From: an uncultured Candidatus Binatia bacterium
GTDB taxonomy: Bacteria; Desulfobacterota; Binatia; Bin18
Direction of reading: 5' to 3'
Length of the DNA stretch: 64,000 bases
NCBI GenBank assembly: GCA_965200965.1
Contig: OZ241744.1
Coordinates: forward strand, 1,728,001-1,792,000
Positions within the stretch are counted from its first letter, which is position 1; each line of letters begins with the position of its first letter. Below the pieces are notes generated by a model. That model worked only from the letters and a program-made list of their open reading frames with translations. It did not search any database and was not told the origin of the DNA. A program made the translations under genes and the position numbers. Below, in pieces: positions 10,220 to 44,475 of the stretch.

Positions 10220-11218
10220 CTATGAGTCTATGGGCAGACTTTTATACGCCGCCCGCTCCTCCAGTACCCTGTCAATTCCAGTCATCCATTCCAAATCTCT
10301 TCCAATAACGAGTTCGGTCATTGCCGCGTGGTGGGTATTTTTCATGGAGATAGGCTTCGCCGCAAGGCCGTGTTTTCTCGCAAGCTCTCTCACTTCTTCT
10401 GCGTTGTCGTAGGTCATAATAAAATCGCCTTTTATTTTCTCACACCCCGCGAAAAGAGTTTCGTGATCTAATTCAAAATGCGTATACAGGCGGCTTCCCG
10501 CTTTCTTGCCGCCGGCCGTATAGGGAGGATCGATAAAAAAGACGACCTCTTTGTTATCTTTGTATTGTTCCAATGTCTGAAAGGCGTCTCTGTGCTCAAA
10601 AAACAACCTGTCCCGCGTCAGGTGAATCTCTCGCAGACGCTTGGCAAGCGTAGCAGGATACCAGCGTGAAAGAACGCCTTTCCCCGCTTCTCCGTTTTTC
10701 AGAAATCCGGCTCCCGACGCCAGAATCCCCCCGTGAAATGTCCGGTTTTTTATGATGGTTTGAAAAGCCCTCTCTTTCATCAATTTTCTCTTTGCATTGA
10801 TCTCGCTAAGAGCGTTCTCTTTCGACATTTCAAAATTGAGTATTCTCGAGGCGAGCCATTCTGCTTCCCCATCAATAAGGGTCTGCCACACGGCCGCGAT
10901 CTCCTCATCAAGCTCAACCATCAACGCGGCTTCAACCAGGTTTTCAAAAACTGCTGTTAAAGAAACGATACCGCCGCCGGCAAAAAGTTCAATCAAAAGA
11001 TTCGGACGCTTTGGTTGGCTGCACAGCCACTCCCGAAGACGAGGAACAAACCAAGTCTTACCGCCCGGATAGCGAAATGGACTTCGCTGGGGAACAGACG
11101 CAACATTCACCGCCTTCATACCCGGCAAGGGTCCGGCCACCTCAGGAGAAGTCTCAAGCTCAGCCAAAGGTTCCGCGGCTTCACCGAACAGCGATTTTTG
11201 CATGGAACTATGCCCCAA
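10220..11218 (-). CDS. Dam-like (D12 class) N6-adenine DNA methyltransferase
   Basis: SPFRYPGGK, ELFAGGG (SAM-binding), FIDPPY; AT-richer than flanks. Confidence 0.9.
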   Translation of the reverse strand: MGHSSMQKSLFGEAAEPLAELETSPEVAGPLPGMKAVNVASVPQRSPFRYPGGKTWFVPRLREWLCSQPKRPNLLIELFAGGGIVSLTAVFENLVEAALMVELDEEIAAVWQTLIDGEAEWLASRILNFEMSKENALSEINAKRKLMKERAFQTIIKNRTFHGGILASGAGFLKNGEAGKGVLSRWYPATLAKRLREIHLTRDRLFFEHRDAFQTLEQYKDNKEVVFFIDPPYTAGGKKAGSRLYTHFELDHETLFAGCEKIKGDFIMTYDNAEEVRELARKHGLAAKPISMKNTHHAAMTELVIGRDLEWMTGIDRVLEERAAYKSLPIDS

Positions 11219-12095
11219 GCGAGCCTTCGTTGGTTGGTGTAGAGGGCTGTTTTTGGTCCACCTTTGACTGAAGCAATTTCACAAAATTCTCAACCCTGCC
11301 AACCCTCGGCCGGGTTATCGTGTTCAAAGCCTCTGAGAATTTTGTATAGACGACCCTAGTTTTTGTCAAGTTATATCTGGGGGCTGCAAGGTCGAGAACA
11401 AGGGCATACACCAGCCAAGCCACTTCAGCCTCAGATTTTGCCACTTCTTCCAAAGCGGGGAGGGTATTGAAGAAAGAATGGTCTAAAGCGACCGCCATTT
11501 TCTTCTTCCAAGCGTGAAGAATTCCGCCCTTAAACATCAGTTGAGGGGCTAAGCGTTTTCGAGACGATGACAGAAAGTCAGGACGGGGAGAGTTGGGGTG
11601 ATCTGTCCAGTCCATTGAGGCATTCGCCCGGCAATCCGACATGTAATGCGAGAATGGCTCTCGTACATTTCCAGAAATGTAAACAGCCTGAATCTCTAAG
11701 GAGCCAAAGTCGTATACCCTTCCATTATGGTCATAAGCAGCTAACACCAAGTCAATATTCCCGGCAGACTTCCCATCAGAATCAGCCAGTCTTACCTCGG
11801 TCAACGGAGTCCAGGCAGTTCCTTCAGGGAAGAAGAAATCCGCAGCATCAGCGACGACACGCCAATTTTCACGAAATCGGATTGGACAGGTAATGACCGC
11901 GCTGTCCCGGTGGGAAATGCTACAGACCCCGAGGGGATCTTTCGCCTTGTCCTTGGTGCAAGCCGGAACCTTATTGTTGAATGGACAAAGTTTGTTCCCC
12001 CGATGGAGTATTGCCTGCGGACTAAAATCTGTCGGCAAATGGCCGAAAACCTCCGCTAAGGGCCGATTTTCCTTTTGCATCTTTCCTCTGTCCAC
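11208..12095 (-). CDS. NotI-family restriction endonuclease
   Basis: AEVFG followed by Cys cluster CPF...CTK...GVCS...TCPIRF; PD-(D/E)xK-like GNIDLV...LEIQAVYISGN; overlaps the MTase start. Confidence 0.82.
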   Translation of the reverse strand: MDRGKMQKENRPLAEVFGHLPTDFSPQAILHRGNKLCPFNNKVPACTKDKAKDPLGVCSISHRDSAVITCPIRFRENWRVVADAADFFFPEGTAWTPLTEVRLADSDGKSAGNIDLVLAAYDHNGRVYDFGSLEIQAVYISGNVREPFSHYMSDCRANASMDWTDHPNSPRPDFLSSSRKRLAPQLMFKGGILHAWKKKMAVALDHSFFNTLPALEEVAKSEAEVAWLVYALVLDLAAPRYNLTKTRVVYTKFSEALNTITRPRVGRVENFVKLLQSKVDQKQPSTPTNEGSLGA

Positions 12096-16104: not shown

Positions 16105-16154
16105 GCAGGATGGAGGAGGGGGGACGACACGCCCGCGCTGGAACAAGCCGCTCT

Positions 16155-16184
16155 GCCGGATTACGCTTCGCTCATCCGCTCTAC
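16155..16184 (-). repeat. GTAG-type REP palindrome overlapping the ParA-like gene stop
   Basis: minus strand GTAG-AG-CGGATGAGC-GAA-GCGTAATCCG-GC, near-identical to the REPs at 20576 and 22695. Confidence 0.75.
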
Positions 16185-18391: not shown

Positions 18392-18645
18392 GGCCGGCTC
18401 CGTTCATTCTGAGCCAGATGACGCCCGGGGGCTGGCCCGCCCGTCCTTTTCGCCAATCACGGGCAGCCCGGAATCACACCAATCACGGTTCAGACCGCCC
18501 TCGGTCGTCCTGACACGCGCCTTGACCGCGGCCCCAACTCCTCAACCGCCGTCCCGGGGGGCTCCTCGGGGGAGCTCAGAGCAAAGAAAGTGAGTGGGCA
18601 TGTCCTGTCTTTGAGCGGGGTCAACTGTGAACGGTATCACCGGGA

Positions 18646-18936
18646 TTATTCTGCTACTGTGACGTGTTCGTTTGCCCAGCGGGCGGGGAACGTCATGAAG
18701 CCCATAGCGGTGGTGAAAAATTCACCGGGGAGTTGGACGGTGATGGTCTCGCCGTCTATCTTCCTGATGATGCCACGAATGGAGCCGGCGGGCTTGTTGA
18801 CATGCCGGGCTTGGACAAACCCTGAAGACGGGCCGTTTTGGGTGGTAAGCGTCACCAGGTATTCGTCAGGAAACGCGCCGGTGCCGATGTGGCAGGGGAT
18901 ATTGACCGATTGTTCAAGCTGAAAGACCTTTGTCAC
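18646..18936 (-). CDS. hypothetical small beta-rich protein
   Basis: 96-aa ORF, GTG start behind GAAGGAGG RBS. Confidence 0.6.
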   Translation of the reverse strand: MTKVFQLEQSVNIPCHIGTGAFPDEYLVTLTTQNGPSSGFVQARHVNKPAGSIRGIIRKIDGETITVQLPGEFFTTAMGFMTFPARWANEHVTVAE

Positions 18937-18999: not shown

Positions 19000-19030
19000 G
19001 TAGGTCGGCTGAGCCGGCGGGCGTGAGCCG
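19000..19030 (+). repeat. GTAG-type REP (single, truncated)
   Basis: GTAG-GT-CGGCTGAGC-CGGCGG-GCGTGAGCCG. Confidence 0.65.
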
Positions 19031-19072
19031 CTGGATCGCTCTGATCGTGGGGTTGTGCATGGGGTTCCTTCC
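19031..19072 (-). pseudogene. relic 5' end of a Type IIG R-M gene
   Basis: AGGAACCCC-ATG-MHNPTIRAIQ matches AGGAACTCC-ATG-MPLSTLRAIQ at 26364; runs straight into a REP. Confidence 0.55.
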
Positions 19073-19076
19073 TCAA

Positions 19077-20534
19077 CTACTCCACTTTAAACTTCTGATT
19101 TCCCTGTTGCGCCTTCAATGCCTCATACTTGGCAAAATCCAGAGAGGCTTCTCTGTCGTAAAAGGCTATCTTATTGGCCCATCCCCGATTGTGGTACGCC
19201 GCAGCAAAGTCAGGCTTTAGCGAAATGGCGCGGTCGTAGTCCGCAAGCGCCGCTTCGAGTTGCCCAAGATTTCTCTTGACATTGCCCCTACCGGAGTACG
19301 CTTCGGCGTAATTAGGGTCTAACCTGATAGCCTCCTCGTAGTCCGCAAGGGCTTCTGCGTTGCGTCCGAGTTCCTTCTTGACGTTGCCCCGGTTGTTATA
19401 CGCCGCAGCGTAACCGGGATTTAACCTAATAGCCTCATCGTAGTCCGCCAAGGCGGATTCATACTCCTTAAGTGCGAACCTGACAGCACCCCGGCTGTTG
19501 TACGCATCATAGTAATCAGGTTTTAGTTCAATAGCCTTATTGTAGTCCGCCAAGGCGGAGGCGTAATCCTTCTCGCTAAAGAACTTAATAACACCACGGT
19601 TGTAGTACGCTACGGCGTAATTAGGGTCTACCCTAATAGCCTCCTCGTAATCCGCAAGGGCTTCTGAGTACTCCTCCAAGAAGATTCTAAAATCGCCTCT
19701 CTGACAATAATTGTCACTTTGCACATTCTCCCGCATTGGTTCTCGACGCTTCTCCTTTCTGATTTCCGCGGTGTAGTAATGCGCTGCGAGTTCAGCGTTG
19801 TAGTCGGATTCGGCTGTGTTTCTCTCAAGAAAACCCGCCGAGTCGGGAAACAGCGTTTTCTCCGAAATGCCCACCCTGTCCAACTCTTGCAAGATCGTTT
19901 TCTGGTGCTCTCTGGAGACGATGATCTCCCGCTCGATCATACTTTCTTCTATTTCGGGTGCTCCAAACAGGAAGACGGACTGCTGTACCGTGAGGCGTTG
20001 GCTATCCAGGACAGGATTGCCGACAGCGGGCCGCCACATATGCCATTGATCATCTCGCTCAAAGAATTCCTTGAGTTCCTGCTTCAAGTCTTCTTGGGTG
20101 GTGACTTCTTGAATCGTGCCAGGCTGCTGGACGTTGACCACAAAGACCTTACCGTCTGTTTCCCCATCAGTTTTGCAGGCAAACCAGAGGGCAACCAGAG
20201 GATTGTAGGTAAAGTCTATCAGCCCGGTCGCTACCCCGTTGTGTTGGAGGTGGGCCATGCACTCCAGAGGCGTCAGATTGCTGTAGGCGTTGGGGTAGCG
20301 GAGATTCACTTCGTAAATAATCTGGTGGATGTAGCCTCTGAACAGGGCAAACACTAACCCAGGATGTTTCAACGGGCGCTTTCGCAGGCGGCGCAGGGCG
20401 CTGCTCTGCACCTTCCAGCTTTCATCCTTTTGGCCGCGGTAAATGTAGCGGCGCTCTTCGCCAGAGGCGGCAAGCTTGTCTATGACTGCGATGTAATCCG
20501 CCAAGCTGGTTATGGATTTTTGATCGTCGCTCAT
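19077..20534 (-). CDS. FRG-domain protein fused to 6 TPR repeats
   Basis: YIYRGQ...LQHNGVATGLIDFTYNPLVALWFAC...QQSVFL; 34-aa TPR units. Confidence 0.9.
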   Translation of the reverse strand: MSDDQKSITSLADYIAVIDKLAASGEERRYIYRGQKDESWKVQSSALRRLRKRPLKHPGLVFALFRGYIHQIIYEVNLRYPNAYSNLTPLECMAHLQHNGVATGLIDFTYNPLVALWFACKTDGETDGKVFVVNVQQPGTIQEVTTQEDLKQELKEFFERDDQWHMWRPAVGNPVLDSQRLTVQQSVFLFGAPEIEESMIEREIIVSREHQKTILQELDRVGISEKTLFPDSAGFLERNTAESDYNAELAAHYYTAEIRKEKRREPMRENVQSDNYCQRGDFRIFLEEYSEALADYEEAIRVDPNYAVAYYNRGVIKFFSEKDYASALADYNKAIELKPDYYDAYNSRGAVRFALKEYESALADYDEAIRLNPGYAAAYNNRGNVKKELGRNAEALADYEEAIRLDPNYAEAYSGRGNVKRNLGQLEAALADYDRAISLKPDFAAAYHNRGWANKIAFYDREASLDFAKYEALKAQQGNQKFKVE

Positions 20535-20578
20535 ACGCTTCCCTCCACCGCCCTGATTTGCCCCTCGGTCAGCCCGCA
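20531..20578 (-). pseudogene. relic 3' end of a Type IIG R-M gene, TGA overlapping FRG ATG
   Basis: encodes CGLTEGQIRAVEGSV* versus YGLTEEEVRAVEGSRA* of the intact gene ending at 22756. Confidence 0.7.
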
Positions 20579-20640
20579 GGGCGGGTTAGCCGGCGGGCGT
20601 AACCCGCCATGTCGGATTACGCTTCGCTAAGCCGACCTAC
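20576..20640. repeat. inverted REP doublet (REPIN/BIME-like)
   Basis: gcagggcgggttagccggcgggcgtaacccgcc-at-gtcggattacgcttcgctaagccgacctac; terminal CTA is the TAG stop of the TPR gene. Confidence 0.8.
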
Positions 20641-21836
20641 GCGCTTTCCAATTCATTGATTTTTGCTTCTGCATCCCGCACGAATTCATTCTTCCCCTGC
20701 TGTTGCGCCAATGTCAGCGCGTGTTTAAAATCCGTCAAGGCGTCCGCAGTGCGCCCGAGTGCCTGCTTGGCCTCGCCCCGGTTGCTGTATGCCTCAGCAA
20801 AGTCACGCTCTAGTTTGATGGCTCGATCATAGTCCACCAAGGCGGAGGCGTACTCCTTAAGCTCTACCTTGGCATTGCCCCGGTTGTAGTACATCTCAGC
20901 CAAATCAGGCTTTAGCTCGATGGCGCGGTCATGGTCCGCAAGTGCCGCTTCGGATTGCCCAAGCTTTGCCTTGACATTGCCCCGGTTGCCGTACGCCTCA
21001 GCATAATCAGGCTTTAGCTCGATGGCGCGGTCATAGTCCGCAACGGCCTCCGCATCGCGCCCGAGTGCCTGCTTGGTGTTGCCCCGGTTGCTGTACGCCT
21101 CAACAAAGCCAGACTTTAGCTCAATGGCGCGGTCATAGTCCGCCAAGGCTTCCGCGTTGCGCCCGAGTGCCTGCTTGGCAGTACCCCGGTTGTAGTACGC
21201 CTCAACAAAGTCAGGCTTTAGCTCAATGGCGCGATCATAGTCCGCAAGCGCCGCTTCAGGTTGCCCAAGCTCTGCCTTGGCGTTGCCCCGGTTGCTGTAC
21301 GCCTCAGCGTCATTAGGCTTTAGGGCGATAGCGCGGTCATAGTCGACAAGCGCCGCTTCATACTCCTTAAGATCGAAATTGGCGACGCCCCGGTTGCTGT
21401 ACGCCTCAGCAAAGCCAGGCTTGAGCTCAATGGCACGGTCATAGTCCGCCAAGGCGGAGGCGTACTCCTTAAGCTTTACCTTGGCATTGCCCCGGTTGTT
21501 GTACGCATTAGCATAATCAGGCTTGAGCTCAATGGCGCGGTCATAGTCCGCCAAGGCGGAGGCGTACTCCTTAAGCGCTGCCTTGGCATTGCCCCGGTTG
21601 TTGTACACCTCAGCGTCATCAGGCTTTAGCTCGATAGCGCGGTCATAGTCCGCAAGCGCCGCTTCATACTCCTTAAGATCGGAATTGGCGACGCCCCGGT
21701 TGCTGTACGCATCAGCAAAGTCAGGCTCTAGCCTGATAGCCTCACCGTAGTCAGCAATGGCTTTCTCGTATTTGCCCAGCGCGACTCTGAAATTGCCTCT
21801 TTGAAAATAATTGTCGCTTAGCGCTTTCTTATTCAT
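20637..21836 (-). CDS. 11-TPR protein (C-terminal half of a split FRG-TPR paralogue)
   Basis: 11 highly similar 102-bp TPR units; ATG at 21836 preceded by GGAGG (9-nt spacing), overlapping the FRG stop (ATGAATAA). Confidence 0.8.
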   Translation of the reverse strand: MNKKALSDNYFQRGNFRVALGKYEKAIADYGEAIRLEPDFADAYSNRGVANSDLKEYEAALADYDRAIELKPDDAEVYNNRGNAKAALKEYASALADYDRAIELKPDYANAYNNRGNAKVKLKEYASALADYDRAIELKPGFAEAYSNRGVANFDLKEYEAALVDYDRAIALKPNDAEAYSNRGNAKAELGQPEAALADYDRAIELKPDFVEAYYNRGTAKQALGRNAEALADYDRAIELKSGFVEAYSNRGNTKQALGRDAEAVADYDRAIELKPDYAEAYGNRGNVKAKLGQSEAALADHDRAIELKPDLAEMYYNRGNAKVELKEYASALVDYDRAIKLERDFAEAYSNRGEAKQALGRTADALTDFKHALTLAQQQGKNEFVRDAEAKINELESA

Positions 21837-22653
21837 TGCCCTGGTCCTCCGCTTTTCTGATCTCCTCGGTGTAGTAATGCTCTGCGAGTTCAGCGTTGTA
21901 GACGGATTCGGCCGTGTTTCTCTCAAGAAAACCCGCCCAGTCGGGAAACAACGTTTTCTCCGAAATGCTCACCCTGTCCAACTCTTGCAAGATCGTTTTC
22001 TTGTGCTCTCTGGAGACGATGATCTCCCGCTCAAGCATACCTTTTTTTATTTCGGGTGCTCCAAACAGGAAGACGGACTGCTGCACCGTGAGGCGTTGGC
22101 TATCCAGGGCAGGATTGCCGATGACAGGTTGCCACAGATGCCATTGTTCATCGATCTCAAAAAACGTCTTGAGTTCCTGCCCCAAAGCTCTTTTGGTCGT
22201 GACTTCTTGAATCGTGTTGGGCTGGACGTTGACCACAAAGACCTTGCCGGCTGTCTCCCCAGCGGTTTCGCAGGCAAACCAGAGGGCAACCAGGGGACTG
22301 TAGGTAAAGTCTATCAGCCCGGTCGCTACCCTGTGGTGTTGGAGATGGGCCATGCACTCCAGGGGCGTCATCGGCTCGCTGTAGGTGTTGGGGTAGCGGA
22401 GTTGTACTTCGTCAATAATCTGGTGGATGTAGCCTCTGAACAGGTATGATATCGTCATCCCTTCATAGTTACGACTATAATCACGGCCGTATCCAGATTG
22501 TTCCAGGCGACGCAGGGCGCTGCTCTTGACCCCCCAGCTTTCATCCTTTTGTCCGCGGTAAATGTAGCGGCGCTCTTCGTCAGAGGCGGGAAGCCCGTTT
22601 ATGACTTCGATGTATTCCGCCAAGCTGGTTATGGATTTTTGATCGTCGCTCAT
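21829..22653 (-). CDS. FRG-domain protein (N-terminal half of split paralogue)
   Basis: Near-identical to the N-terminus of 19077..20534 (MSDDQKSITSLA, YIYRGQKDESW, IDFTYSPLVALWFAC). Confidence 0.85.
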   Translation of the reverse strand: MSDDQKSITSLAEYIEVINGLPASDEERRYIYRGQKDESWGVKSSALRRLEQSGYGRDYSRNYEGMTISYLFRGYIHQIIDEVQLRYPNTYSEPMTPLECMAHLQHHRVATGLIDFTYSPLVALWFACETAGETAGKVFVVNVQPNTIQEVTTKRALGQELKTFFEIDEQWHLWQPVIGNPALDSQRLTVQQSVFLFGAPEIKKGMLEREIIVSREHKKTILQELDRVSISEKTLFPDWAGFLERNTAESVYNAELAEHYYTEEIRKAEDQGNE

Positions 22654-22697
22654 CGGCTTCTCTCCATCGTCCTGATTTGCTCCTTGATCAGCCCGTA
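22650..22697 (-). pseudogene. second relic 3' end of a Type IIG R-M gene, TGA overlapping FRG ATG
   Basis: encodes YGLIKEQIRTMERSR*. Confidence 0.6.
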
Positions 22698-22759
22698 GGG
22701 CGGGTTAGCCGTCAGGCGTAACCCGCCATGTCGGATTACGCTTCGCTAATCCGACCTAC
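22695..22759. repeat. inverted REP doublet (REPIN/BIME-like)
   Basis: GTAGGGCGGGTTAGC-CGTCAG-GCGTAACCCGCC-AT-GTCGGATTACGC-TTC-GCTAATCCGAC-CTAC; supplies the TAG stop of the IIG gene. Confidence 0.82.
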
Positions 22760-25700
22760 GCCCGACTGCCCTCCACCGCCCGCACTTCCTCCTCCGTCAA
22801 CCCATACAGCCCATACACCAGCCGGTCAATCTCGGCTTCCTGCTCGGCGGTGTCTGCCGAGGGGTCGGCGGCTTTGGCCTTGAGGATGCGGTCAAGCAGC
22901 CGGATGGACGGGCGCTGCTTGGCGGCTGATATCTCAGGGACGGGCAGGCGCTCTACGGCAAACCTTTTCCATCGAGTGACACCCATTCCAGAAGTCAGGC
23001 CCGTACTTTTCATAAACCACGTCATCAGATTAGAATTGAGGACAGCGCACAGATATTTGATTGCTCGCCCGGACATCATAAATGCGGTATCAGCGCAGAA
23101 CATTTCGCTCGCATCATAAGCGAATCGCCCTTGCTCAGTCAGGTCCATCCAGAACAGCTTTTCTTTGGTAAACTCCTTGTAAGCTCCCGAACTGTAATAA
23201 TCTACTTGCAGTTGCCACCATTGATAAGGCACCTGCCCCGTCTTTGGATTAGCTCCGCCCCGCCGCTTCAAAAGCTGCTTCTTGTGCGGTAACAGATGTT
23301 TTCGCACTGCGGGATATTCATTTTCTGCGATGTTGGAATGGCTGTATATCAGCCACACCCCCGCCCACTCTGCCCGATACCGCCGAATGTCCCGGCCCCG
23401 CAGCACCGGCTTGATGATGTCCGCGGAAGCCGGGTCTTCGTCAATCAACGCCTGCCTGGTGGTGTCGTCTATAATGAAGGCCGTGTTGTAGCCGGTCTTG
23501 ATGCCATAGTTGATCTTCACATCCCAGTCTTTCAGCGGCGTCCCTTTCGCCTCCATCTTATCCATGACGGACCATTCCAGGGCCGACAACGCACCCCACG
23601 GCTTTTCGCCTTGCGGGCGCAACACCCCCCACAGGCTTTCGGCCGGCGGAAAATCCTTGTCGGGCAAGCGGTCCATGTCTACCGCTCTGCCGGCTTCTCC
23701 GCTTTTGCCCTGCCGCGCAATCAGAACGCTGGTATCAACAATAGCGTTTTCAAAAACGTCTTTGCCCATTTCCAGCAGGCGCAGCGGTGTGTGTTGCTCG
23801 GAGAACCAGCGCCGCAGGGGCTTGCCGTATTCGGCCTTCAGCCAACTGTTTGAGGTGATGTAGGACAAGAGGCCGCGTTGCGGTGTCAGCAGTTGGCCGC
23901 CTCTCTCATAGAAAAGCTGATAGATGTCGCCGCTGCGGGCGAAGGTGGCAAAGCCGGCGTCTTTATAGAGTTTGCCCAGCTCGCCGGCGTTCTTCTGTAA
24001 CTGAACATACGGCGGATTGCCGATCACCACATCAAAGCCCTCAGCCACACCGAACATATACTCAGCGTCAAACCAGCCGGCGCGGGCGTTCTGGTCGTAG
24101 GGGTCCCACTGCGCGATCTTGTCGGCGTCATCCGCGGGAAACCCAAGGCTTTCCAATGCCTGCGCCAACGACTTCCGTAACTGCTTGTCTTTTCTCTTGT
24201 ACTCCAGCTTTTTCCGGCGCGTGGTGGCGTGAAAATGCCGCTCGCGGTTGTCCAGTAACTGACGCTCCACCTGCTGCGCTTTTGCGCTCGTCAGCATCCG
24301 CTCGCCCTTGAGACCCAGAAGCGTATCCGCAGCAATAAAGCGCGTTTCCAGGTTGGGCAGCGGCTTGAGGCCGAAATTGTCCGCGGCGGGGTCGGGCTCC
24401 TGCTCAATGGCCAGCGAGATGAAAAAACGCAGCTTGGCGATCTGGCAGGCGACCGGCTGAATGTCTACACCGAAGATGCTGTTCTGAATCAGGTACAGCT
24501 TGCGGCCAAAGTCGGAATCGCGGTAGCGTTCAAAAGTCTGGCTGATCTCGGTCAACTCGGCCTCGCGGTCGCCCTGGTCCCGGGTATCAAAGGCGGCTTG
24601 GGCCCGGTCCCGGGCGATCGCTTTTTGCAGCCCCTCCCAACGGGTGTTGTCAGGGTCAAGCCGGCGCAAGGCCAGGGTAAGCTTGTGCAGCACGCCCATT
24701 GGAAACGCCCCGGAGCCAACCGCGGGGTCCAGCACCTTGAGCCCGGCTATGGCCCGGACAACCGCGTCGGTCTCAGCCGCGTCAAACAACGCGCTGGCGT
24801 CGCTGAAGGCATCGGCATAGTCCAGCAGATAACGAAGGCGTTCCTGCCAGAACACGCGGTCGTTGTCGCTCGGCTGGCAGCGTTCGGCCAGGGCGGCGAC
24901 AAGGGCCTCATCAACCATGTAGTCCACCACCGGCCGCGGGGTGTAGTAAGAGCCGGTCTGCTTGCGGGCCGTGTCGCGGGTTTCGGGGTTGTAGGCGGCC
25001 AGCAGGTTTTCAAACACCTTGCCGAGCAGCTCAGGGTCAAGGGCGACTTCCTGCTCTATGGGCGTGTTCTCCTCAACCGTGAACTTGTAACTGTTGAACA
25101 GCGGAATAAGGCCGTGGTCATCAAAGAACAGCCGGTTGGGGATGGAATAGTCCCGCCGGTGGCGGGGGTTGTCGGTAAAACAGTCAATCCGCCAGCCCTG
25201 CTCCGAGGTGGCTTCTTCGCTGTCGAGGCAGTCAAACAGCCCGCCGTTGATGAACGGCGTCCGGCTGAACAGGGCCAGCAGTGCGTCGGGGTTGCGGAGT
25301 TCGGAGCGGTAGCGGTACAGCGAAAAATTGCGGTGGGTGGTACGCTTCCCGCTGCTGAAGCCGCGCTTGGTCCTCTCGGTGTTCAGGGTGGCGAAAAACA
25401 GGTTCTGGAGCACCGCCCGGTACCAGGAATCGCCGGTGTCCCGGTCGTAGTCGCGGAGCAGGGCCGCGACCTCGCTTTCGTTGAACAGCTCGTCCGCTAC
25501 CAGGCCCTTTTCCTTGATGAACCAGACAAACAACAGCCGGGTAATGAGACGGATGATGTGTTCTTCGGGCGACAGGGTTCTGGCCGGCGAGGTGTCACCA
25601 GATCGTCCTTTGGGAAACCGGGCCTCTGTGACGCCACGGCTGAACCAGTCGAACAACTGCCGGTAGAAGCGGCGGTTCAGTTCCCGCGTGTCCAGGGTGT

Positions 25701-26364
25701 CGAGCCAGGCGTTGAGCAGCCCGTCAAAATTGTGGGGGATATGGTGGCTGGTCATCCAGTCCAGCAGATTCTCCAGCGACAACCCGGCCAGGATGTCGAG
25801 GTGGGCACGGTGCGGGTCGGTGGGGTTGATTTCACGGATCAGCGACACGCGGCCCAGCACATCACGGCTGTGGTCGAGCGTGTTGCGTCGGCGATGGACA
25901 AAGGCCAGGCTGAGCCGGTCGTCAGAGCTGCGGAACAGGACCACCACAGGTGCGGGGAAACGCTTGTTGATCTCGCGGGTGAAAGCGGCGTAGCGGCTCC
26001 GGGGGTAGCTGGCCTGTTTCAAGGCAACGGCAAAGAACAGAAAGCTCTGCTGCCGGCCCTGCTCAAAGGCCGCCAGCCCGGAATCCAGCCGCGGGGGCTG
26101 GCTGGCGGCGATCTCATCGCTTGTCACCTGAAACAGCAGCCGGACCGAGGCGGCGTTCTCACACAAGGCCCGCTCTGAGTCTGTGCCCGGCCGCTCAGCC
26201 GGAAAAGCCCGCAGGAAGTCGTCAACAGCCCCGGTCTGCTCGCTCAGGCGGCGGTCACTGCGGTAGCCGAGGGCGGCCAGCAGCTCGGTGGCCGCGGCGG
26301 CAAAGTCCGGCCCGGCAGCGTTCTTCAAGGCGGTCTGGATGGCGCGGAGGGTGCTCAAGGGCAT
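22756..26364 (-). CDS. Type IIG / Eco57I-like N6-adenine R-M enzyme with TaqI-C-like specificity domain
   Basis: PFINGGLF, ELLGKVFENLL, GSYYTP, LDPAVGSGAF, VIGNPPY, GIKTG, EIDRLVYGLYGLT; start MPLSTL after RBS. Confidence 0.92.
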   Translation of the reverse strand: MPLSTLRAIQTALKNAAGPDFAAAATELLAALGYRSDRRLSEQTGAVDDFLRAFPAERPGTDSERALCENAASVRLLFQVTSDEIAASQPPRLDSGLAAFEQGRQQSFLFFAVALKQASYPRSRYAAFTREINKRFPAPVVVLFRSSDDRLSLAFVHRRRNTLDHSRDVLGRVSLIREINPTDPHRAHLDILAGLSLENLLDWMTSHHIPHNFDGLLNAWLDTLDTRELNRRFYRQLFDWFSRGVTEARFPKGRSGDTSPARTLSPEEHIIRLITRLLFVWFIKEKGLVADELFNESEVAALLRDYDRDTGDSWYRAVLQNLFFATLNTERTKRGFSSGKRTTHRNFSLYRYRSELRNPDALLALFSRTPFINGGLFDCLDSEEATSEQGWRIDCFTDNPRHRRDYSIPNRLFFDDHGLIPLFNSYKFTVEENTPIEQEVALDPELLGKVFENLLAAYNPETRDTARKQTGSYYTPRPVVDYMVDEALVAALAERCQPSDNDRVFWQERLRYLLDYADAFSDASALFDAAETDAVVRAIAGLKVLDPAVGSGAFPMGVLHKLTLALRRLDPDNTRWEGLQKAIARDRAQAAFDTRDQGDREAELTEISQTFERYRDSDFGRKLYLIQNSIFGVDIQPVACQIAKLRFFISLAIEQEPDPAADNFGLKPLPNLETRFIAADTLLGLKGERMLTSAKAQQVERQLLDNRERHFHATTRRKKLEYKRKDKQLRKSLAQALESLGFPADDADKIAQWDPYDQNARAGWFDAEYMFGVAEGFDVVIGNPPYVQLQKNAGELGKLYKDAGFATFARSGDIYQLFYERGGQLLTPQRGLLSYITSNSWLKAEYGKPLRRWFSEQHTPLRLLEMGKDVFENAIVDTSVLIARQGKSGEAGRAVDMDRLPDKDFPPAESLWGVLRPQGEKPWGALSALEWSVMDKMEAKGTPLKDWDVKINYGIKTGYNTAFIIDDTTRQALIDEDPASADIIKPVLRGRDIRRYRAEWAGVWLIYSHSNIAENEYPAVRKHLLPHKKQLLKRRGGANPKTGQVPYQWWQLQVDYYSSGAYKEFTKEKLFWMDLTEQGRFAYDASEMFCADTAFMMSGRAIKYLCAVLNSNLMTWFMKSTGLTSGMGVTRWKRFAVERLPVPEISAAKQRPSIRLLDRILKAKAADPSADTAEQEAEIDRLVYGLYGLTEEEVRAVEGSRA

Positions 26365-26392: not shown

Positions 26393-29300
26393 TCAGGCGG
26401 CACGGATGACGAGCCAGCTGACAAGTTCAAAGTCATCGTCGGGCGTGCCGGCACTGGAAGCCACCGGCAGCTTGAAATCGCGGTTGCTGCGCAGCTGGGC
26501 GACCTGGGTGGCGTGGTTCGCCTCGTCGATGTGGGCAAGCACCGCCTGCACCAGCCGGTCGTACCGGGCCATGTTCCGGCCGTGGCGGGTTTCGCGGTCA
26601 AACTGGTCGCACAGCCGTTGCAGCGGCTTGGTCCTGCCCTCTGCCGCGGCCTCAAATACGTCGAGCGCCTGCCGGGCGTTGGTGCAGCCGTGGCGGATGT
26701 CGCCGGTCTCGTGGATGTAGACCGCATAAAAGGGATGGATCGGGCTGGCCGCTTTTTCGCGCCTGTCCGTGCCGGCCCCACGCTGGCGCAGAAAAAATAT
26801 CGCGCCGGGTTGGGCCGGGCCGTCCGTGACCGCGTACACCCCGGCCGGCGTGGCTTCGAGTTCGGCCCGGTTTTTTTCGAGATAGCGCAGGAGCTGGGCA
26901 AAGAAATAATCCAGGGTGAAATCGCTCATCACCACGCCGTCGTCCAGCTCGTCGAGGTCCAGCACCTCTTCCTGCAACTGGCGGAGCTGCCGGTCACGGA
27001 AGTTCAACTCCATCTGGGCCTGCGCAAAGGTGAAGGTGTTCAGCGGGTCGTCATCACCGCTGGCCGCGGCGTCGGCCAGCGCCATGCGTGCCTCAACCCG
27101 GCTTTGCAGGCGGAGATAGACATCCATGTCTTTGGTCGGCCAGTAGTTAATCATCCGCACCCTTGTGTTGCGGCTGCCGATGCGCTCAATCCGCCCAAAG
27201 CGCTGGATGAGGCGGACCGGATTCCAGTGAATGTCATAGTTCAGCACGGTGTCGCAGTCCTGGAGGTTCTGCCCCTCTGAAATGCAGTCGGTGGCGATCA
27301 GCAGGTCAATGTCGCCCTCAACCCCCGCGGCCCGGCCCCGCGCCCGGGGGGCAAAGTTGCTCAGGATAGCGTTGAAATTGTTGTCGCCGTAACTGGTATG
27401 GGTCACATCGCCCGACACCATCGCCATGTGCAGCCCCAGTTCATCGGCCAGCCCGCGCAACTCCCGGTAGAGATATTCGGCCGTGTCCCTGAAGGTAGTG
27501 AACACCAGCAGCTTGCGGTTTGGCCGGCCGTCGCGGTCGGTCGGCGGGCAGGCCACCTTGTGGCGCAGCTCGCTCCGCATCTCGTTGAGCTTGCCGTCCC
27601 GCTCCGGCGTGATGGTCTTCAACTCGTCCAGGACCGCGCTCAGGGTGTGCCGGTCGCGGCGGACATCGGCCTGCCAGCGGGGCAGGTCCAGCTCCCGCAG
27701 GTGATACGGGCGGCGCGCCCGATTGACCAGGAACTCCTCATCGTCTTCGTCAGGCTCGGGCAGGATATCGCCCGGCATCTCCGCGCCGCGGTGTTCGTGG
27801 CCATGCTGCTCGTAGTCGGCGATCCTGGCCAGCAAGCTGTCCATTTTGTCAATGGTGCGGCCCAGGGTTTCCGCCAGAGCATAGGCCGAACTCTCCAGCC
27901 GCTTCAGAAAGTTCGTCCGCATCATGCCGAGCAGGAAGCGCTCGCGGTCTTCCTGATTGAAGTTTCTCTCCCGCTTTTCCCGGACCAGGACCTGCTTTGC
28001 CTTCTGGCTCACCAGGTACTCGGAGGGCCTGTAGATGGACAGGGCGAATTGGCCGATCTGCTCGGACAGGGCTGTGTACGACAGCGCCCCGTCCAGGTCG
28101 GTCGGCGGGTAGCGGTTGTCCGGCTGCCGGGTTGTGGGAAACTCGCCGATGGTCTGCATTTCTTCGGCGTAGAAGGTCTTGATCTGCCGCCGCGAGCGGG
28201 CGATGGACACGCCGCCGAGCAACTGGAAAAAATCGGCCCCGAGTTTTTCCAGCAGGTGCGCCTTATCTTTTGGCCCGGCCTTGTCCTGCCAGTCGCTGAA
28301 CGCCTTCTGGGCCCGGCCCAGCACCGTGCCGATATGGCTGATGCCCAGACTGTCGCGGAACACATCCTCGCGCTTTTCGGTCATAAGATAGATCTGGTTG
28401 CGCAGGTCAAGAAGCGAGGTGTTGACCGGGGTGGCCGACAGCATCAGCACCCTGGTTTGCGCCCCGTGCCGGATGACTTCTTCCAGCAGCCGTGCGTAGC
28501 GGCTGCGGCCCACCCGCCCGCTGGCGTCGGGCCGGGGCCTGGTGTCGTTGCGGAAGTTGTGCGACTCGTCAATCACCACCAGATCAAAATTGCTCCAGTT
28601 GAAGCGTGCCAGGTCAATATCCCCGGCCCTGCCGGTGTCGCGGGACAGGTCGGTGTGCGACAGCAGGCTGTAGCCGAAACGGTCGGCGAGAAAGGGGTTG
28701 TCGGTCTGGGCGTGGACAGCCGGATACAAGGCCCAGTTGTCACGCAGTTTTTTTGGGCATAGCACCAGCACCCGTTCGTTGCGCAGTTCAAAGAACTTGA
28801 TGACCGCCAGCGCGGTATAGGTCTTCCCCAAGCCCACGCTGTCGGCCAGGATGCAGCCCTTGTGGCGCAGCAGACGGGCGATGACGCTCTTGGCCCCGTC
28901 TTTCTGGAAGCCGTACAGCGCCTTCCAGATGGCGGTGTCGTACAGGTGGGTGTCGGACAGGTCGCGCTCGCCGGCCTGTCTGGCTTCCAGCTCGTCGCCG
29001 AACAGCTCAAACAGGGTCTTGTAGTAGACGAGTTCCGGCGCGTGGTCCTTGCCGAGGCGGGCCAGCGCGTCCAGTACCTCGTGTTTCACGTCGCTGGTCA
29101 GCGCGGTATCGGCCCAGATAGCGTCAAACCAGTGCCGCAGGTCGGCGCGTATCTCTTCGGAGGCGCTTGCCAGGTTGATTTCCATGTTGGTGCCGGGGCC
29201 GCAGCCCAGCCCCCTCCGGGTGAAATTCGAGCTGCCCACCACCGCCACACCCCCGGCGGCCCCAGACTCGGCGAGATACATCTTGCCGTGCAGAAAACTG

Positions 29301-29647
29301 GACTGACTGATGGAGCGGATTTTGACCCGCCCGCTCTGGACCCAGGCGGTGCAGTCCCGGGCGAGGTGTGTCTGCCGCAAGGTGTGGCTGGGCGACAACC
29401 GGCCTTCGGTCAGGCAGAAGGCTTTGGGGTCTTTTGGCCCGGGGTCCACTTCGCCGACCGAGGCCGGGTCGCCGAACAGAAACCGCACATCTTTGATGCC
29501 GCTCAGTTCGTGCTGGAGTGCCTCATAGCCGTAAATGCTGAAATAGGCCGAAACCAGGCGAAAGACTGTGGCGTCCGCCAGACCCTGGCGCAGGTAGTCA
29601 ACGACCGGGCGGGAGTGGTTGTCCAGAATGTGTTCGTATCTCTGCAT
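26393..29647 (-). CDS. PLD-nuclease + SNF2-family helicase
   Basis: HGKMY...GSSNFT (PLD), ADSVGLGKT, DESHNFRN, LSATP, SEGQNLQD, WNPVRLIQRFGRIER. Confidence 0.92.
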   Translation of the reverse strand: MQRYEHILDNHSRPVVDYLRQGLADATVFRLVSAYFSIYGYEALQHELSGIKDVRFLFGDPASVGEVDPGPKDPKAFCLTEGRLSPSHTLRQTHLARDCTAWVQSGRVKIRSISQSSFLHGKMYLAESGAAGGVAVVGSSNFTRRGLGCGPGTNMEINLASASEEIRADLRHWFDAIWADTALTSDVKHEVLDALARLGKDHAPELVYYKTLFELFGDELEARQAGERDLSDTHLYDTAIWKALYGFQKDGAKSVIARLLRHKGCILADSVGLGKTYTALAVIKFFELRNERVLVLCPKKLRDNWALYPAVHAQTDNPFLADRFGYSLLSHTDLSRDTGRAGDIDLARFNWSNFDLVVIDESHNFRNDTRPRPDASGRVGRSRYARLLEEVIRHGAQTRVLMLSATPVNTSLLDLRNQIYLMTEKREDVFRDSLGISHIGTVLGRAQKAFSDWQDKAGPKDKAHLLEKLGADFFQLLGGVSIARSRRQIKTFYAEEMQTIGEFPTTRQPDNRYPPTDLDGALSYTALSEQIGQFALSIYRPSEYLVSQKAKQVLVREKRERNFNQEDRERFLLGMMRTNFLKRLESSAYALAETLGRTIDKMDSLLARIADYEQHGHEHRGAEMPGDILPEPDEDDEEFLVNRARRPYHLRELDLPRWQADVRRDRHTLSAVLDELKTITPERDGKLNEMRSELRHKVACPPTDRDGRPNRKLLVFTTFRDTAEYLYRELRGLADELGLHMAMVSGDVTHTSYGDNNFNAILSNFAPRARGRAAGVEGDIDLLIATDCISEGQNLQDCDTVLNYDIHWNPVRLIQRFGRIERIGSRNTRVRMINYWPTKDMDVYLRLQSRVEARMALADAAASGDDDPLNTFTFAQAQMELNFRDRQLRQLQEEVLDLDELDDGVVMSDFTLDYFFAQLLRYLEKNRAELEATPAGVYAVTDGPAQPGAIFFLRQRGAGTDRREKAASPIHPFYAVYIHETGDIRHGCTNARQALDVFEAAAEGRTKPLQRLCDQFDRETRHGRNMARYDRLVQAVLAHIDEANHATQVAQLRSNRDFKLPVASSAGTPDDDFELVSWLVIRAA

Positions 29648-30800: not shown

Positions 30801-31018
30801 CAAGCAGGTCACAGCCGGCCAGTTCAGCACCCGGCCACTATAGCCCGATACACCGCCAAACCGAAGAGGCGCAGCCGCGTCTTTCCGCGCAACCGGCGGC
30901 ACGGTTGACATATGCCGCCAGAATGGGCTAAGCGTTGTGCCAAAGAAGCCTGAAAACGAAATCAGCCCTTGCGCAAGGCCGCCGAGGGTGCTCAGTTGGC
31001 CGGCAGGCGGGCGTCAAT

Positions 31019-34000
31019 ATGGCCCGAAAAGTGGAAAAAACAGAACGCTATCTGAATACGCGCCACGCCGGCCTCACCGGTCTGCTACTCCTGTGCGGCC
31101 TGCTGTTGACCCTTGCCCCCACGGCCAGGGCGCAAACAGCCACCTCCACGCCGGCCGCAACCCTCACCGTCACCACCCTTACGGATGACGCCAAAACGCC
31201 GGCACCGGGGTCTCTCCGCTATCAGGTGAACCGGGCCAAGGCCATGTCTACCTCGACGACAATCATTTTCGACCCGGCCCTCAGTGGCGGCACCATCACG
31301 CCCACCCGCCGGCTGGAGCTCTCTGGCAACATACATCTCCTCGCCCAGGATGCCGCCGGGATGTCCATTGGTATGACGCTCGATGGGTCACGGCTCCCGG
31401 CTGGCAATGATGTGCTGACCATCTCTTCCAACACCGCCACCGTTTCGGGATTCGATATCGTCAACTTCGCCGATGCGGGCATCGCCGTCTCAGGCTCTTG
31501 GAGATGCCCGGCCAAGGCACGGGTCACGATCTCCGATAATGTCCTGATAGTAGCCACTTCTACGGCCGTCGGGATTGAGGTGGGCAGTGGCACCCGCCGG
31601 TGCTCCGCCGTGACCATCAGCGAGAATCGGATCGCGGCGGATACGTCTGAGCCGGAAAGCCGAGGGGCCGGCATCTACATTACTGTCGAGGGGTTTAGCG
31701 CCAGGGCGGCCGCCACCGTGTCCGGTAATACTATCACCGGGGCCGGCATCCGCTTTGAAAACGCTGGCGACGGGGGTACCAATGAGATGACCGCCACCGT
31801 GTCCGGTAATACTATCACCGGGGCCGGCATCCGCTTTGAAAACACTGGCGGCAGGGGTATCTACAGGCTAAAGGCCACCGTGTCCGGTAATACTATCACC
31901 GGGGCCGGCATCCACTTTGAAGACGATGCCCGCCGCGGGGTTTTCCCCTATGATTATGATCCCGGTCATCGCAGGCTAAAGGCCACCGTGTCCGGTAATA
32001 CTATCACCGGGGCCGGCATCCACTTTGAAGACTATCTCCGCGGGGGGCTAACCGCCACCGTGTCCGGTAATACTACCACCGGGGCCGGCATCCACTTTGA
32101 AAACAAATACGGGGGAACAAACGCCACCGTGTCCGGTAATACTACCACCGGCATCCGCTTTGAAGGCAGCCTGTTCAGCGGGTGGGTAACTGCCACCGTG
32201 TCCGGTAATACTACCACCAGCACCGGCATCCACTTTGTAAACAGATCCGGCTCGGGGTCCAATCGGCTAAAGGCCACCGTGTCCGCCAATACTATCACCG
32301 GCACCGGCATCTCCTATGAAAACAGAGGCGGAGGGGGTGGCCAGCGGATAACCGCCACCGTGTCCAGTAATACGATCACCGGCACCGGCACCGGCATCGC
32401 CTTTGAAGACCGAGCCGGCGGAGGGGGCCATCGGATAACCGCCACCGTGTCCGGTAATACGATCACTGGCACAGGCACCGGCATCGCCTATGACAACAGA
32501 GGCGGAGGGGGTGGCCATACGGTAACTGCCACCGTGTCCGGTAATACGATCACTGGCACAGGCACCGGCATCGCCTATAGAAACAGATCCGGCGGGGGTG
32601 GCCAGCGGATGACCGCCACCGTGTCCAGTAATACGATCACCGGAGCGCGCTATGGGATTAGGATTACCAATGGAGGTGGCGGCGGGGGCAACAGACTCAC
32701 GGTCCGTGGATCCGACAACACGATCATCGGCAGCGGCATGTATGGGATTCAGCTTGTCGGAGGTAACGGCGGGGACAAAAGATTAACGGTCCGTGGATCC
32801 GGCAACACGGTCATCGGCAGCGGCACGGCGGATATCTTCGCATTAACCAGCCGATGGTCATCCACTGCTGTGAGCGGGCGTCTTGAGAACACCATCTTCA
32901 ACACCAAATCAGTCGTGGGAGGGAGCTTCACCGTCCACAGATACCAGGCCGCCACGCTCCCCAGCGGGGGTCTCACCGGCGGGTACCGGAACCAGGACGG
33001 CACGACCGAGGTCGTGACCATCCCCACCATTGAGGAAACCTATCTGTCCGCCCCGGCCCAGGTTGCCCCGCGCCAGGCGGTCGAGCGGGCCGTGGCCGTG
33101 GTCTCCAGGCAGGCCACCTCAACGGATTTCGGGGCCACCCCCCTCGTCGTCCGCCTCATTCCCCGGGATGCAGACGGGCGGGTGGTCAGCGGCGTAGCTG
33201 ACCACCCCGTGCGGGTGTGTTTACCCCTGCCGGCCGGCCTGTCGGACGCGCCCACTCCACAGCTCGCCTGGCTGGACGGCCCCGTCTGGCACCTCCTGTC
33301 CTCGGAGCGGTCAGAGGGGCAGATCTGCGCCGATTTCCGCGGGTTCCCGCTCTTTCTTGGCAGCACCGGCGTTCCGGACACCCCCGACAATCCCGGCGGT
33401 CCCGGCAACCCCGGCGGTGGCACCACCAACCCCGGCGGCCCCGGCAACCCCGCTCCGCCGCAGCACCAAGCCGCGGATGCTGAAGCCACAGCGCGCGGCA
33501 CGGAGAGCGCGGGCAGCAGTGCCCCCCTCGCCGGCCACCCCCCCTTGGTCGGTGTTCTGGAGAACCCCCGGCCAGCCTCCTCGCAGAGTGGCATCGGGCT
33601 GATCTCGGGCTGGGTGTGCGCCGGGGCGGTGGTTGAACTGGAGGTGGACGGCACGCCTCTCGGAGCAGCCGCCTCTGGCACGAGCCGGGCCGATGTGGCC
33701 GCCACTGGGGCCTGCGGGGGCCGGGCCGATGTCGGCTTTGGGCTGCTGTTCAACTGGAACCTGCTCGGTGACGGCCAACATACCATCCGGGCCTTGGCCG
33801 ATGGGGTCGAGTTCAGCCAGGCGACCTTCACCGTGACGACCCTGGGGGAGGAGTTCGTCCACGAGGGCAGCGGCACGGCCCTGGTGGCCGACTTTCCGTC
33901 TCCGGGCGAGCAGGCACGGCTGGTGTGGCAGGCGGGTCTCCAGAACTTCATGCTGGCCCCGCTTTCGGCCCCGGCGGCCCGGCCGGCCGGCGGGCTGGCA

Positions 34001-42912: not shown

Positions 42913-43344
42913 ATGTTTGACGTTGTGACCGCTGCCTATGTGCAATCCGGTGTCGCCCTTGCTGTCGGCATGGCTCAGGTTGGCATAATCTGGATGGGCA
43001 TCAAGAAAATGTCTGAGGCGAGCGAGAGCCGTGCGCGACAGGTGGACCACTCCATGCGCACCCAGGCAGACCGCCATGAAGAAGCCATGCGCACCCAGAC
43101 AGCACGCCATGAAGAAACCATGCGCACCCAGGCAGACCGCCATGAAGAAGCCATGCGCACCCAGACAGCACGCCATGAAGAAACCATGCGTACCCAGACA
43201 GCACACCATGAAGAAGCCATGCGCACCCAGGCAGACCAGCACGCCGAAACAATGGAAGCCCTGCGGCAACAGGGGGAAGCCTTGCGTACGCTGATTGAAC
43301 GCACCGCGCCCAGCGCGGGGGCTGGAAGACAGGAGGCCCAATGA
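42913..43344 (+). CDS. membrane-anchored protein with six 11-aa (33-bp) His/Met-rich repeats, copy 1
   Basis: GGAGGA RBS; TM GVALAVGMAQVGIIWMGI; MRTQ(AD/TA)RHEE(A/T) units. Confidence 0.75.
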   Translation: MFDVVTAAYVQSGVALAVGMAQVGIIWMGIKKMSEASESRARQVDHSMRTQADRHEEAMRTQTARHEETMRTQADRHEEAMRTQTARHEETMRTQTAHHEEAMRTQADQHAETMEALRQQGEALRTLIERTAPSAGAGRQEAQ

Positions 43345-44109: not shown

Positions 44110-44475
44110 ATGTTTGACGCTGTGACCGCTGCCTATGTGCAATCCGGTGTCGCCCTTGCTGTCGGCATGGCTCAGGTTGGCATAATCTGGATAGGCATCA
44201 AGACAATGTCTGAGGCGAGCGAGAGCCGTGCGCGACAGGTGGACCACTCCATGCGCACCCAGGCAGACCGCCATGAAGAAGCCATGCGCACCCAGGCAGA
44301 CCGCCATGAAGAAACCATGCGCACCCAGGCAGCACGCCATGAAGAAGCCATGCGCACCCAGGCAGACCAGCACGCCGAAACAATGGAAGCCCTGCGGCAA
44401 CAGGGGGAAGCCTTGCGCACGCTGATTGAACGCACCGCGCCCAGCACGGGGGCTGGAAGACAGGAGGCCCAATGA
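44110..44475 (+). CDS. membrane-anchored protein with four 11-aa His/Met-rich repeats, copy 2
   Basis: Near-identical to 42913..43344 with two fewer repeat units. Confidence 0.75.
   Translation: MFDAVTAAYVQSGVALAVGMAQVGIIWIGIKTMSEASESRARQVDHSMRTQADRHEEAMRTQADRHEETMRTQAARHEEAMRTQADQHAETMEALRQQGEALRTLIERTAPSTGAGRQEAQ

What the first reader, a model, noticed from the sequence alone, without database searches (positions are those of the whole stretch)
19031..22697. Fossil ends of additional Type IIG genes abut the REPs and are coupled to the FRG genes
Seen: the 48 nt between each REP doublet and the FRG start encode CGLTEGQIRAVEGSV* (20531-20578) and YGLIKEQIRTMERSR* (22650-22697). These match the C-terminus of the intact IIG enzyme (YGLTEEEVRAVEGSRA*), and their TGA overlaps the FRG ATG (ATGA). 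After the fused FRG-TPR gene, AGGAACCCC-ATG-MHNPTIRAIQ (19060-19031) matches the IIG start AGGAACTCC-ATG-MPLSTLRAIQ and runs straight into a REP. Inference: FRG-TPR was originally translationally coupled to a IIG gene, and tandem IIG genes were lost or replaced with REPs at the junctions. This suggests a IIG + FRG-TPR functional unit and a REP-linked route for turning over R-M specificities.
Basis: partly seen in the sequence, partly recalled or inferred. Interest (0 to 1): 0.8.

Follow-up and report, generated by a model that had tools for sequence, protein, structure and literature searches.

The report
Displaced restriction-gene tails heading defence cassettes
Two FRG-TPR candidate defence cassettes in a sponge-associated bacterium each begin with a leftover copy of the last 15 codons of the neighbouring restriction enzyme gene, likely the scar of cargo genes being stacked behind that gene's conserved end by ordinary recombination rather than of a repeat-driven way to change restriction specificity.

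Summary
Both 48-nt pieces and the 10-codon start are real Type IIG fragments, among the best non-self matches in the 3.6-Mb genome. The coupling inference is confirmed: an intact IIG overlaps an FRG-TPR start in two relatives (G007, G075), and one sequencing run (X5) joins the IIG end straight to FRG1, lacking exactly the 109-nt REP doublet plus remnant.

The rest is not supported. The tails are the normal leaders of FRG-TPR and hold its ribosome-binding site; they head 12 of 14 FRG genes of two clades, mostly with no IIG body and no REP. Neither G000 nor G007 has a Y1 transposase match. The putative specificity region changes by swapping two segments inside one gene (5 x 5 variants among 11 alleles) while the tail stays at least 81% identical. 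FRG-TPR and IIG often occur apart, so they are no obligate unit.

Stacked IIG tails around varied defence and toxin-antitoxin-like cargo recur across the family and phylum. This resembles Rhs C-terminal displacement and R-M insertion with long target duplication. One extra IIG copy before the orf96-dcd module is likely. Verdict: new variant of a known process.

The parts
26393..29641 (-). PLD (HKD)-SNF2 helicase, 1082 aa, partner gene upstream of the IIG
   Evidence: Pfam PLDc_2, SNF2, Helicase_C; PADLOC 'HKD+Snf2' E 4e-104; same order in G007, G034, G075
22756..26364 (-). Type IIG restriction-methyltransferase, 1202 aa; variable segments aa 1003-1064 and 1071-1148; constant tail aa 1149-1202
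   Evidence: Pfam Eco57I, TaqI_C; PADLOC REase_MTase_IIG; allele comparison; variable region 49.7% GC against 60.8% for the gene
22695..22759 (-). REP doublet 1 (two inverted GTAG-headed hairpins); its GTAG holds the IIG stop
   Evidence: fold z -4.4; absent together with remnant 1 from a contig of run X5
22650..22697 (-). IIG tail remnant 1, leader of FRG1
   Evidence: 26/38 to own IIG tail, 34/48 to the G007 IIG end, 39/48 to remnant 2; anti-SD pairing -6.4 kcal/mol
21829..22653 (-). FRG1, 274 aa, FRG domain; candidate defence effector
   Evidence: Pfam FRG; PADLOC PDC-S15 E 3e-33
20637..21836 (-). TPR1, separate TPR gene overlapping the FRG1 stop by 8 nt; the split is the ancestral state
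   Evidence: same split in G007 and 7 other orthologues
20576..20640 (-). REP doublet 2; its GTAG holds the TPR1 stop
   Evidence: G007 has a single REP after its TPR
20531..20578 (-). IIG tail remnant 2, leader of FRG2
   Evidence: 39/48 to the intact G007 IIG end, same last codons and overlap; anti-SD pairing -11.3 kcal/mol
19077..20534 (-). FRG2-TPR2 fusion, 485 aa, last TPR helix cut short
   Evidence: 485 aa in 4 of 4 cluster members; FRG part 79% identical to FRG1
19031..19074 (-). Diverged copy of the IIG start (ribosome-binding site plus 10 codons)
   Evidence: 27/39, best non-self hit in the genome; 0 of 3000 shuffles; covered by contigs of runs X1, X8, X10, X11
19000..19031 (-). Single decayed REP hairpin; its 3' flank resembles the first codons of the tails
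   Evidence: does not fold better than shuffles, z 0.97
18567..18936 (-). orf96 and a 20-codon relic of a dCTP-deaminase-like gene; the pair is intact in G007
   Evidence: run X1 has 757 nt where the window has 184

Best explanation
The two 48-nt pieces are leftover 3' ends of the Type IIG gene that head two tandem FRG-TPR cassettes, likely left by recombination at the gene's conserved end and likely kept because they hold the cassettes' ribosome-binding sites. Shown: the ancestral-type arrangement, helicase > IIG overlapping FRG > TPR > REP, is intact in G007, and IIG joins FRG1 directly in run X5. Shown: alleles of this IIG exchange two variable segments between conserved flanks, the last flank being the tail. 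Inferred general mechanism: incoming DNA that carries a new IIG 3' part plus its own downstream genes recombines into the resident gene. The old tail and its cargo are pushed downstream, and later deletions erode everything except the tail bases next to the cargo start. Inferred local history: (1) a duplication of tail + FRG-TPR + REP created junction 2, with its breakpoint at a short likeness between the REP's 3' flank and the tail's Tyr-Gly-Leu codons; (2) unequal exchange between the two 258-nt repeats copied the REP + tail block in front of FRG1, or removed it in X5; (3) a second IIG copy once began after TPR2 and was deleted up to a REP. The REPs are passengers and recombination substrates, not the driver. 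FRG is predicted from the literature to be an NAD+-consuming ADP-ribosyltransferase-fold effector; nothing here tests that.
For: G007: IIG ends GLTDEEIRAVEGSV* over the FRG ATG. X5 contig (1727 nt, depth 47.7) skips 22657-22765, giving IIG ...VEGSR* over the FRG1 ATG; 2 cluster members also end VEGSR. A second X5 contig differs from junction 1 at 12 of 118 letters, the same number by which junction 2 differs. Tails in register head 9 of 10 FRG genes of the window's clade and 3 of 4 of a second clade, but 1 of the 17 other FRG rows. Tail lengths run from about 30 to 170 nt with no fixed breakpoint. At the orthologous trxB locus G005 keeps only a 30-codon tail before FRG-TPR, G006 less, G004 a helicase stub. 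G034 shows IIG > cargo > tail > membrane-like gene + ThsB-like TIR > tail > FRG-TPR with no match to this REP. Extra tails at 5 of 14 loci with a IIG body and at 4 of 14 regions fetched from the phylum. 5 x 5 variable-segment types among 11 alleles, tails 81-100% identical.
Against: The remnants are closer to each other (39/48) and to the G007 end (34 and 39/48) than to the window's own IIG end (30 and 31/48), so they are no recent copies of the present gene and may come from other alleles or paralogues. The start remnant needs a second IIG copy at some time. Both tails begin exactly at the REP's last four bases, as a site-specific join would. The excess of orphan tails over an internal control is not significant (9 of 21 against 1 of 11; Fisher p 0.11, or 0.06 without two broken genes). 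The direction of the 109-nt change in X5 is not fixed. Simple deletion of a IIG body also leaves a tail before a kept gene. No insertion was caught with an empty site in a near-identical strain.
Confidence: 0.7

Rival explanations
1. One reading: the locus once held two or three complete IIG genes in tandem, each coupled to its own FRG-TPR, and their bodies were deleted between REPs.
For: Real start remnant after TPR2. G007 has a divergent 60-codon IIG tail just before the same orf96. Remnants differ from the own IIG end.
Against: No start remnant at junctions 1 or 2. X5 joins IIG and FRG1 directly. No genome of 41 searched shows two full IIG genes side by side at this locus. The junctions are 90% identical over 258 nt, as one duplicated junction would be.
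Confidence: 0.15
2. A REP-associated HUH transposase (RAYT) cuts and joins at the REP's CTAC/GTAG end and moves tail + FRG-TPR cassettes or swaps IIG genes.
For: Both tails start at the last four bases of a GTAG-headed inverted doublet. Y1 proteins occur in 34 of 55 family genomes.
Against: No PF01797 match in G000 (99% complete) or G007. About 27 REP loci only, few of them doublets. A REP at 1 of 11 other orphan tail-FRG junctions, of another family and about 90 nt from the start. Breakpoints vary.
Confidence: 0.07
3. FRG-TPR is a dedicated partner of the helicase-IIG system, for example a back-up effector that fires when the IIG is inhibited, and the overlap keeps their amounts matched.
For: Two FRG clades about 26% identical each overlap an intact IIG (G007, G075). 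Three further orthologues follow another N6-methylase gene.
Against: 2 of 11 long IIG-type frames carry FRG; others carry DUF4258/DUF2283 pairs or nothing. FRG-TPR persists intact without this IIG in 9 loci. In the window the coupling is broken in most strains seen.
Confidence: 0.08

Closest known systems
Rhs C-terminal displacement (Jackson et al. 2009, PMC2935791; passages read)
   Same: An intact gene followed by fragments of its own conserved sequence, of variable length, each heading a different payload; proposed homologous recombination that shunts the incumbent end downstream.
   Different: In Rhs the displaced piece is a conserved core plus a variable tip that can be reused. Here the displaced piece is the constant tail behind the variable region, too short to hold specificity, and the payload is separate downstream genes.
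R-M insertion with long target duplication (Furuta, Abe and Kobayashi 2010, PMC2853133; passages read)
   Same: Integrase-free inserts flanked by direct repeats over 30 bp that often span a start or stop; the text names one case whose target is a Type IIG gene (its Supplementary Figure 7d, not seen).
   Different: There the insert is an R-M system; here the R-M gene is the target and the inserts are FRG-TPR, TIR or toxin-antitoxin-like genes. The repeats here are only 63-81% identical.
Allelic TRD exchange in Type IIG genes and domain movement (PMC2853133 passages; PMC3077401 passages; PMC3467074 abstract)
   Same: Two variable C-terminal segments between conserved flanks in otherwise near-identical alleles, as described for Campylobacter; seen here in 11 alleles.
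   Different: Recognition sequences are unknown here; movement between the two segment positions was not tested.
REPIN / RAYT systems (search listing only; features recalled)
   Same: Inverted GTAG-headed REP doublets outside genes.
   Different: Low copy number, no Y1 transposase match in this genome, and no sign that the REPs move the cassettes.
FRG domain / PADLOC PDC-S15 (PMC9503650; passages read)
   Same: Both FRG proteins match PF08867 and 13-14 PDC-S15 models. The paper calls Frg an ART-superfamily domain, a potential antiviral effector that might act as an NADase.
   Different: Here FRG is paired or fused with TPR repeats. No solved relative was found by sequence and activity is untested.

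Membership tests
Type IIG R-M gene fragment | Sequence homology to IIG termini beyond chance | tested here: met
Type IIG R-M gene fragment | Derived from additional complete genes at junctions 1 and 2 | tested here: not met
   X5 direct join; G007; no start remnants there
3'-end displacement array (Rhs type) | Intact gene followed by copies of its conserved part, variable in length | tested here: met
3'-end displacement array (Rhs type) | Displaced pieces keep a reusable variable tip | tested here: not met
   window remnants are 16 codons of the constant tail; the variable segments end at aa 1148
3'-end displacement array (Rhs type) | Circular intermediate or single crossover | not testable with these tools
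   only contigs of runs were available
Insertion with long target duplication | Direct repeats over 30 bp flank the insert, no integrase | tested here: met
   38-48-nt tail repeats; no integrase among the genes of the locus scanned
Insertion with long target duplication | Insert holds R and M genes | tested here: not met
   inserts are REP + tail, or FRG-TPR
Insertion with long target duplication | Empty site in a close relative | tested here: inconclusive
   X5 lacks the 109-nt block but the direction is not fixed; no empty site for a whole FRG-TPR unit
REPIN-RAYT mobilised element | Inverted GTAG REP doublet | tested here: met
REPIN-RAYT mobilised element | Cognate RAYT in the genome | tested here: not met
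   PF01797: 0 matches in G000 and G007
Translationally coupled IIG-FRG pair | A translated upstream frame ends on the FRG start | tested here: not met
   in the window no in-frame start before the last 5 codons; met in G007, G075 and X5
FRG / PDC-S15 | Profile match | tested here: met
FRG / PDC-S15 | ART fold and NADase or anti-phage activity | tested here: inconclusive
   fold pLDDT 36; no solved relative; activity not testable

The most novel reading that the evidence does not exclude
The constant last helix of Type IIG genes is a phylum-wide, integrase-free landing pad: each recombination that brings a new specificity segment can also bring the donor's downstream defence or toxin-antitoxin genes, pre-wired to the tail's ribosome-binding site, so that cassettes stack up in order of arrival behind the enzyme, like an integron without an integrase.
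Probability: 0.35. Interest if true: 0.6.

Novelty: new variant of a known kind. Interest (0 to 1): 0.35.

Why it matters
It gives a legible, testable route by which defence genes gather behind restriction-modification genes without an integrase: short IIG-tail repeats mark cassette borders and could be used to mine new defence genes and to order them in time. It also flags FRG-TPR as a mobile candidate defence pair in sponge symbionts. It does not show a new kind of element or a REP-driven switch of specificity.

Tried and rejected
Chance matches: rejected. Start remnant as a decayed TPR end plus REP: rejected. Assembly artefact: unlikely, since contigs of other studies cover junction 1 (X11), junction 2 (X1) and the start remnant (X1, X11); X8 may be the source sample. 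FRG1/TPR1 split as a sequencing frameshift: rejected. A DNA search with the start remnant in 55 family genomes found only the REP part. The metagenome scan with the FRG alignment gave 3 distant loci, one in a helicase-IIG neighbourhood but not coupled. Two more distant FRG-TPR loci from other lineages showed no IIG tail by eye; one lies about 1 kb behind a Type ISP gene. The FRG fold failed (pLDDT 36), so no fold search was run; the solved-structure search gave only E > 0.1. The orphan-tail excess is not significant. My note that remnant 1 is less decayed in X2, X3 and X5 was dropped: those letters equal junction 2's. No complex prediction was run, since no binding is claimed. Literature searches found no paper on IIG-tail arrays or IIG-FRG-TPR coupling; the library lacks most subscription papers. 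Look-ups of earlier findings by place, by sequence and by one word set returned nothing.
Full report
Setting. The window lies in a single 3.62-Mb contig, 61.5% GC. Close FRG relatives sit in records titled Candidatus Binatia, and 4 of the 13 runs that hold the stretch are labelled sponge metagenome. On the minus strand the locus reads: thioredoxin-reductase-like gene (trxB), PLD-SNF2 helicase, Type IIG enzyme, REP doublet, tail 1, FRG1, TPR1, REP doublet, tail 2, FRG2-TPR2, IIG start remnant, one REP, orf96, a dCTP-deaminase relic, Schlafen/AlbA ATPase, ParA-like gene. The genome has one such IIG, two close FRG genes and one distant FRG.

The observation. All three matches are there. Against 7.24 million positions the tail matches (30/38, 26/38) are the best and joint second-best non-self hits, and the start match (27/39) is the best. 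The start segment beats 3000 of 3000 shuffles and is not a decayed TPR end plus REP; it does not match the G007 start significantly. A profile from 91 of 117 homologous tails scores remnant 2 third in the genome. The first codons of each remnant coincide with the REP end and flank, the ATGA follows from FRG's second codon, and the tail frames lack a usable start.

Coupling is real. In G007 (same genus) the orthologous locus has an intact 1205-aa IIG ending GLTDEEIRAVEGSV* over the FRG ATG, then TPR and one REP. G075 has an intact IIG overlapping a fused FRG-TPR of a second clade. A 1727-nt contig of run X5 skips exactly window 22657-22765, so its IIG ends VEGSR* on the FRG1 start. Another X5 contig differs from junction 1 at 12 of 118 letters, the number by which junction 2 differs; I read it as junction 2. 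A contig of X3 joins the IIG end, a REP block 31 nt shorter, a tail and an FRG allele lacking FRG1's 7-residue insert. So the two 258-nt repeats (90% identical) likely recombine among strains. These are contigs of four runs from two studies; they show presence, not frequency.

The tail is the leader of FRG-TPR. PF08867 has 31 matches in 22 of 55 family genomes. Two well-supported FRG-TPR clades hold 10 and 4 rows. A IIG tail in register heads 9 of 10 and 3 of 4 of them (misses: G062, G006), against 1 of the 17 other rows, tested against 2400 gene starts of G000. Seven orthologues 62-65% identical to FRG1 lie in at least four different neighbourhoods; five 20-kb loci were tested for the IIG by tblastn, four without a match, and the three others showed no long DNA match to the G007 IIG. 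Tail lengths run from about 30 to 170 nt, and a REP lies within 220 nt at 1 of 11 orphan junctions. Behind trxB, G005 keeps a 30-codon tail before FRG-TPR, G006 a few codons, G004 a helicase stub. The tail carries the Shine-Dalgarno site (-11.3 and -6.4 kcal/mol), which likely explains why it survives; this is inference.

Specificity changes inside one gene. Among 11 alleles (9 of the 12 cluster members, plus P0002 and P0003) residues 1003-1064 fall into 5 types and 1071-1148 into 5 types, in mixed combinations, while the tail is 81-100% identical. The variable part is 49.7% GC against 60.8%. That these segments set the recognition sequence follows from the TaqI_C match and from PMC2853133, which reports two such variable regions in a Campylobacter IIG (passages). 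No REP is needed for this.

REPs. About 27 loci match in the genome, few as doublets. PF01797 has no match in G000 or G007, though it has in 34 of 55 family genomes. The third REP and two solo copies end in a flank much like the tail's first codons. One microhomology-guided duplication, later copied, therefore explains both junctions more simply than two site-specific events.

The wider pattern. The last 60 residues of the IIG match 21 places in 16 of 55 family genomes, 9 in frames of at most 140 codons; an internal 60-residue control matches 11 places, 1 in a short frame (Fisher p 0.11). Extra tails lie behind 5 of 14 loci with a IIG body. G034 has IIG, cargo, tail, a gene pair with a ThsB-like TIR, tail, FRG-TPR. 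G009 has tails around a DUF4258/DUF2283 pair. In 151 genomes drawn from the phylum, 15 of 38 tail matches lie in frames of at most 110 codons. Of 14 regions fetched around them, 4 hold two or more tails around DUF4238/AAA_15/DUF3226, YhcG, RhuM/nucleotidyltransferase or DUF2283 cargo; one is a frameshifted IIG, two lie at contig ends, the rest are single tails. G007 itself has a second tail before orf96-dcd, 97-98% like its own IIG over the first 95 nt and divergent after.

What counts against my reading. The remnants are closer to G007's end than to the own IIG end. The orphan-tail excess is not significant, the direction of the X5 difference is open, and plain deletion of a IIG body would also leave a tail.

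Comparison and verdict. The pattern works like Rhs C-terminal displacement (PMC2935791, passages) and like R-M insertion with long target duplication (PMC2853133, passages; its supplementary figure on a IIG target was not seen and may bear on novelty), but meets the full definition of neither. FRG is described as an ART-superfamily domain and possible NADase (PMC9503650, passages); my fold failed. Ten literature searches found no account of IIG-tail arrays. Earlier notes of this scan describe like scars at other genes; they are unchecked leads. The finding is real and unusually legible, a new variant of a known process. Interest 0.35.

Noticed in passing
window 22921-23358 (IIG aa 1003-1148); P0001, P0002, P0003, P0121-P0130: Two putative specificity segments shuffle in mixed combinations among strains: 5 x 5 types in 11 alleles, one type of each shared with another species of the genus.
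   Followed up: yes
L012 5400-8600 (G007): Three tandem units of a small repeat-rich ORF plus the 5' part of the Schlafen/AlbA gene, joined to TPR 3' ends or to a IIG tail; some joints make in-frame AlbA-TPR hybrids.
   Followed up: partly
window 43052-43237 and 44249-44385: Two ORFs with 33-nt repeats like those of the small ORF that G007 carries four times in the IIG locus; no Pfam match for the G007 copy.
   Followed up: no
window 18646-18936; L061, L062, L063, L057: orf96 (no Pfam or PADLOC match) is paired with a dCTP-deaminase-like gene in 5 of 6 other genomes that have it, at unrelated loci; a candidate two-gene defence module, broken in the window.
   Followed up: partly
L091, L106, L107, L114: FRG genes of other clades directly follow sequence that looks like the C-terminus of Type I HsdS (motif recalled, not tested), so FRG may ride behind specificity genes generally.
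   Followed up: no
L130 11214-12073, L080 1706-2686, L053 10270-10677: A 135-aa gene without Pfam match travels with a ThsB-like TIR gene behind IIG tails in two genomes and follows an FRG-TPR pair in a Poribacteria record.
   Followed up: no
window 16140-16178: The REP and flank at the end of the ParA-like gene are 90% identical to the REP and flank after TPR in G007.
   Followed up: no
window 10220-12095: NotI-family endonuclease gene with a D12-class adenine methyltransferase gene: a second R-M-like pair 7 kb from the locus.
   Followed up: no
window 30935-34444: 1169-aa protein with 69-87-nt repeats and no Pfam match, probably surface-exposed.
   Followed up: no
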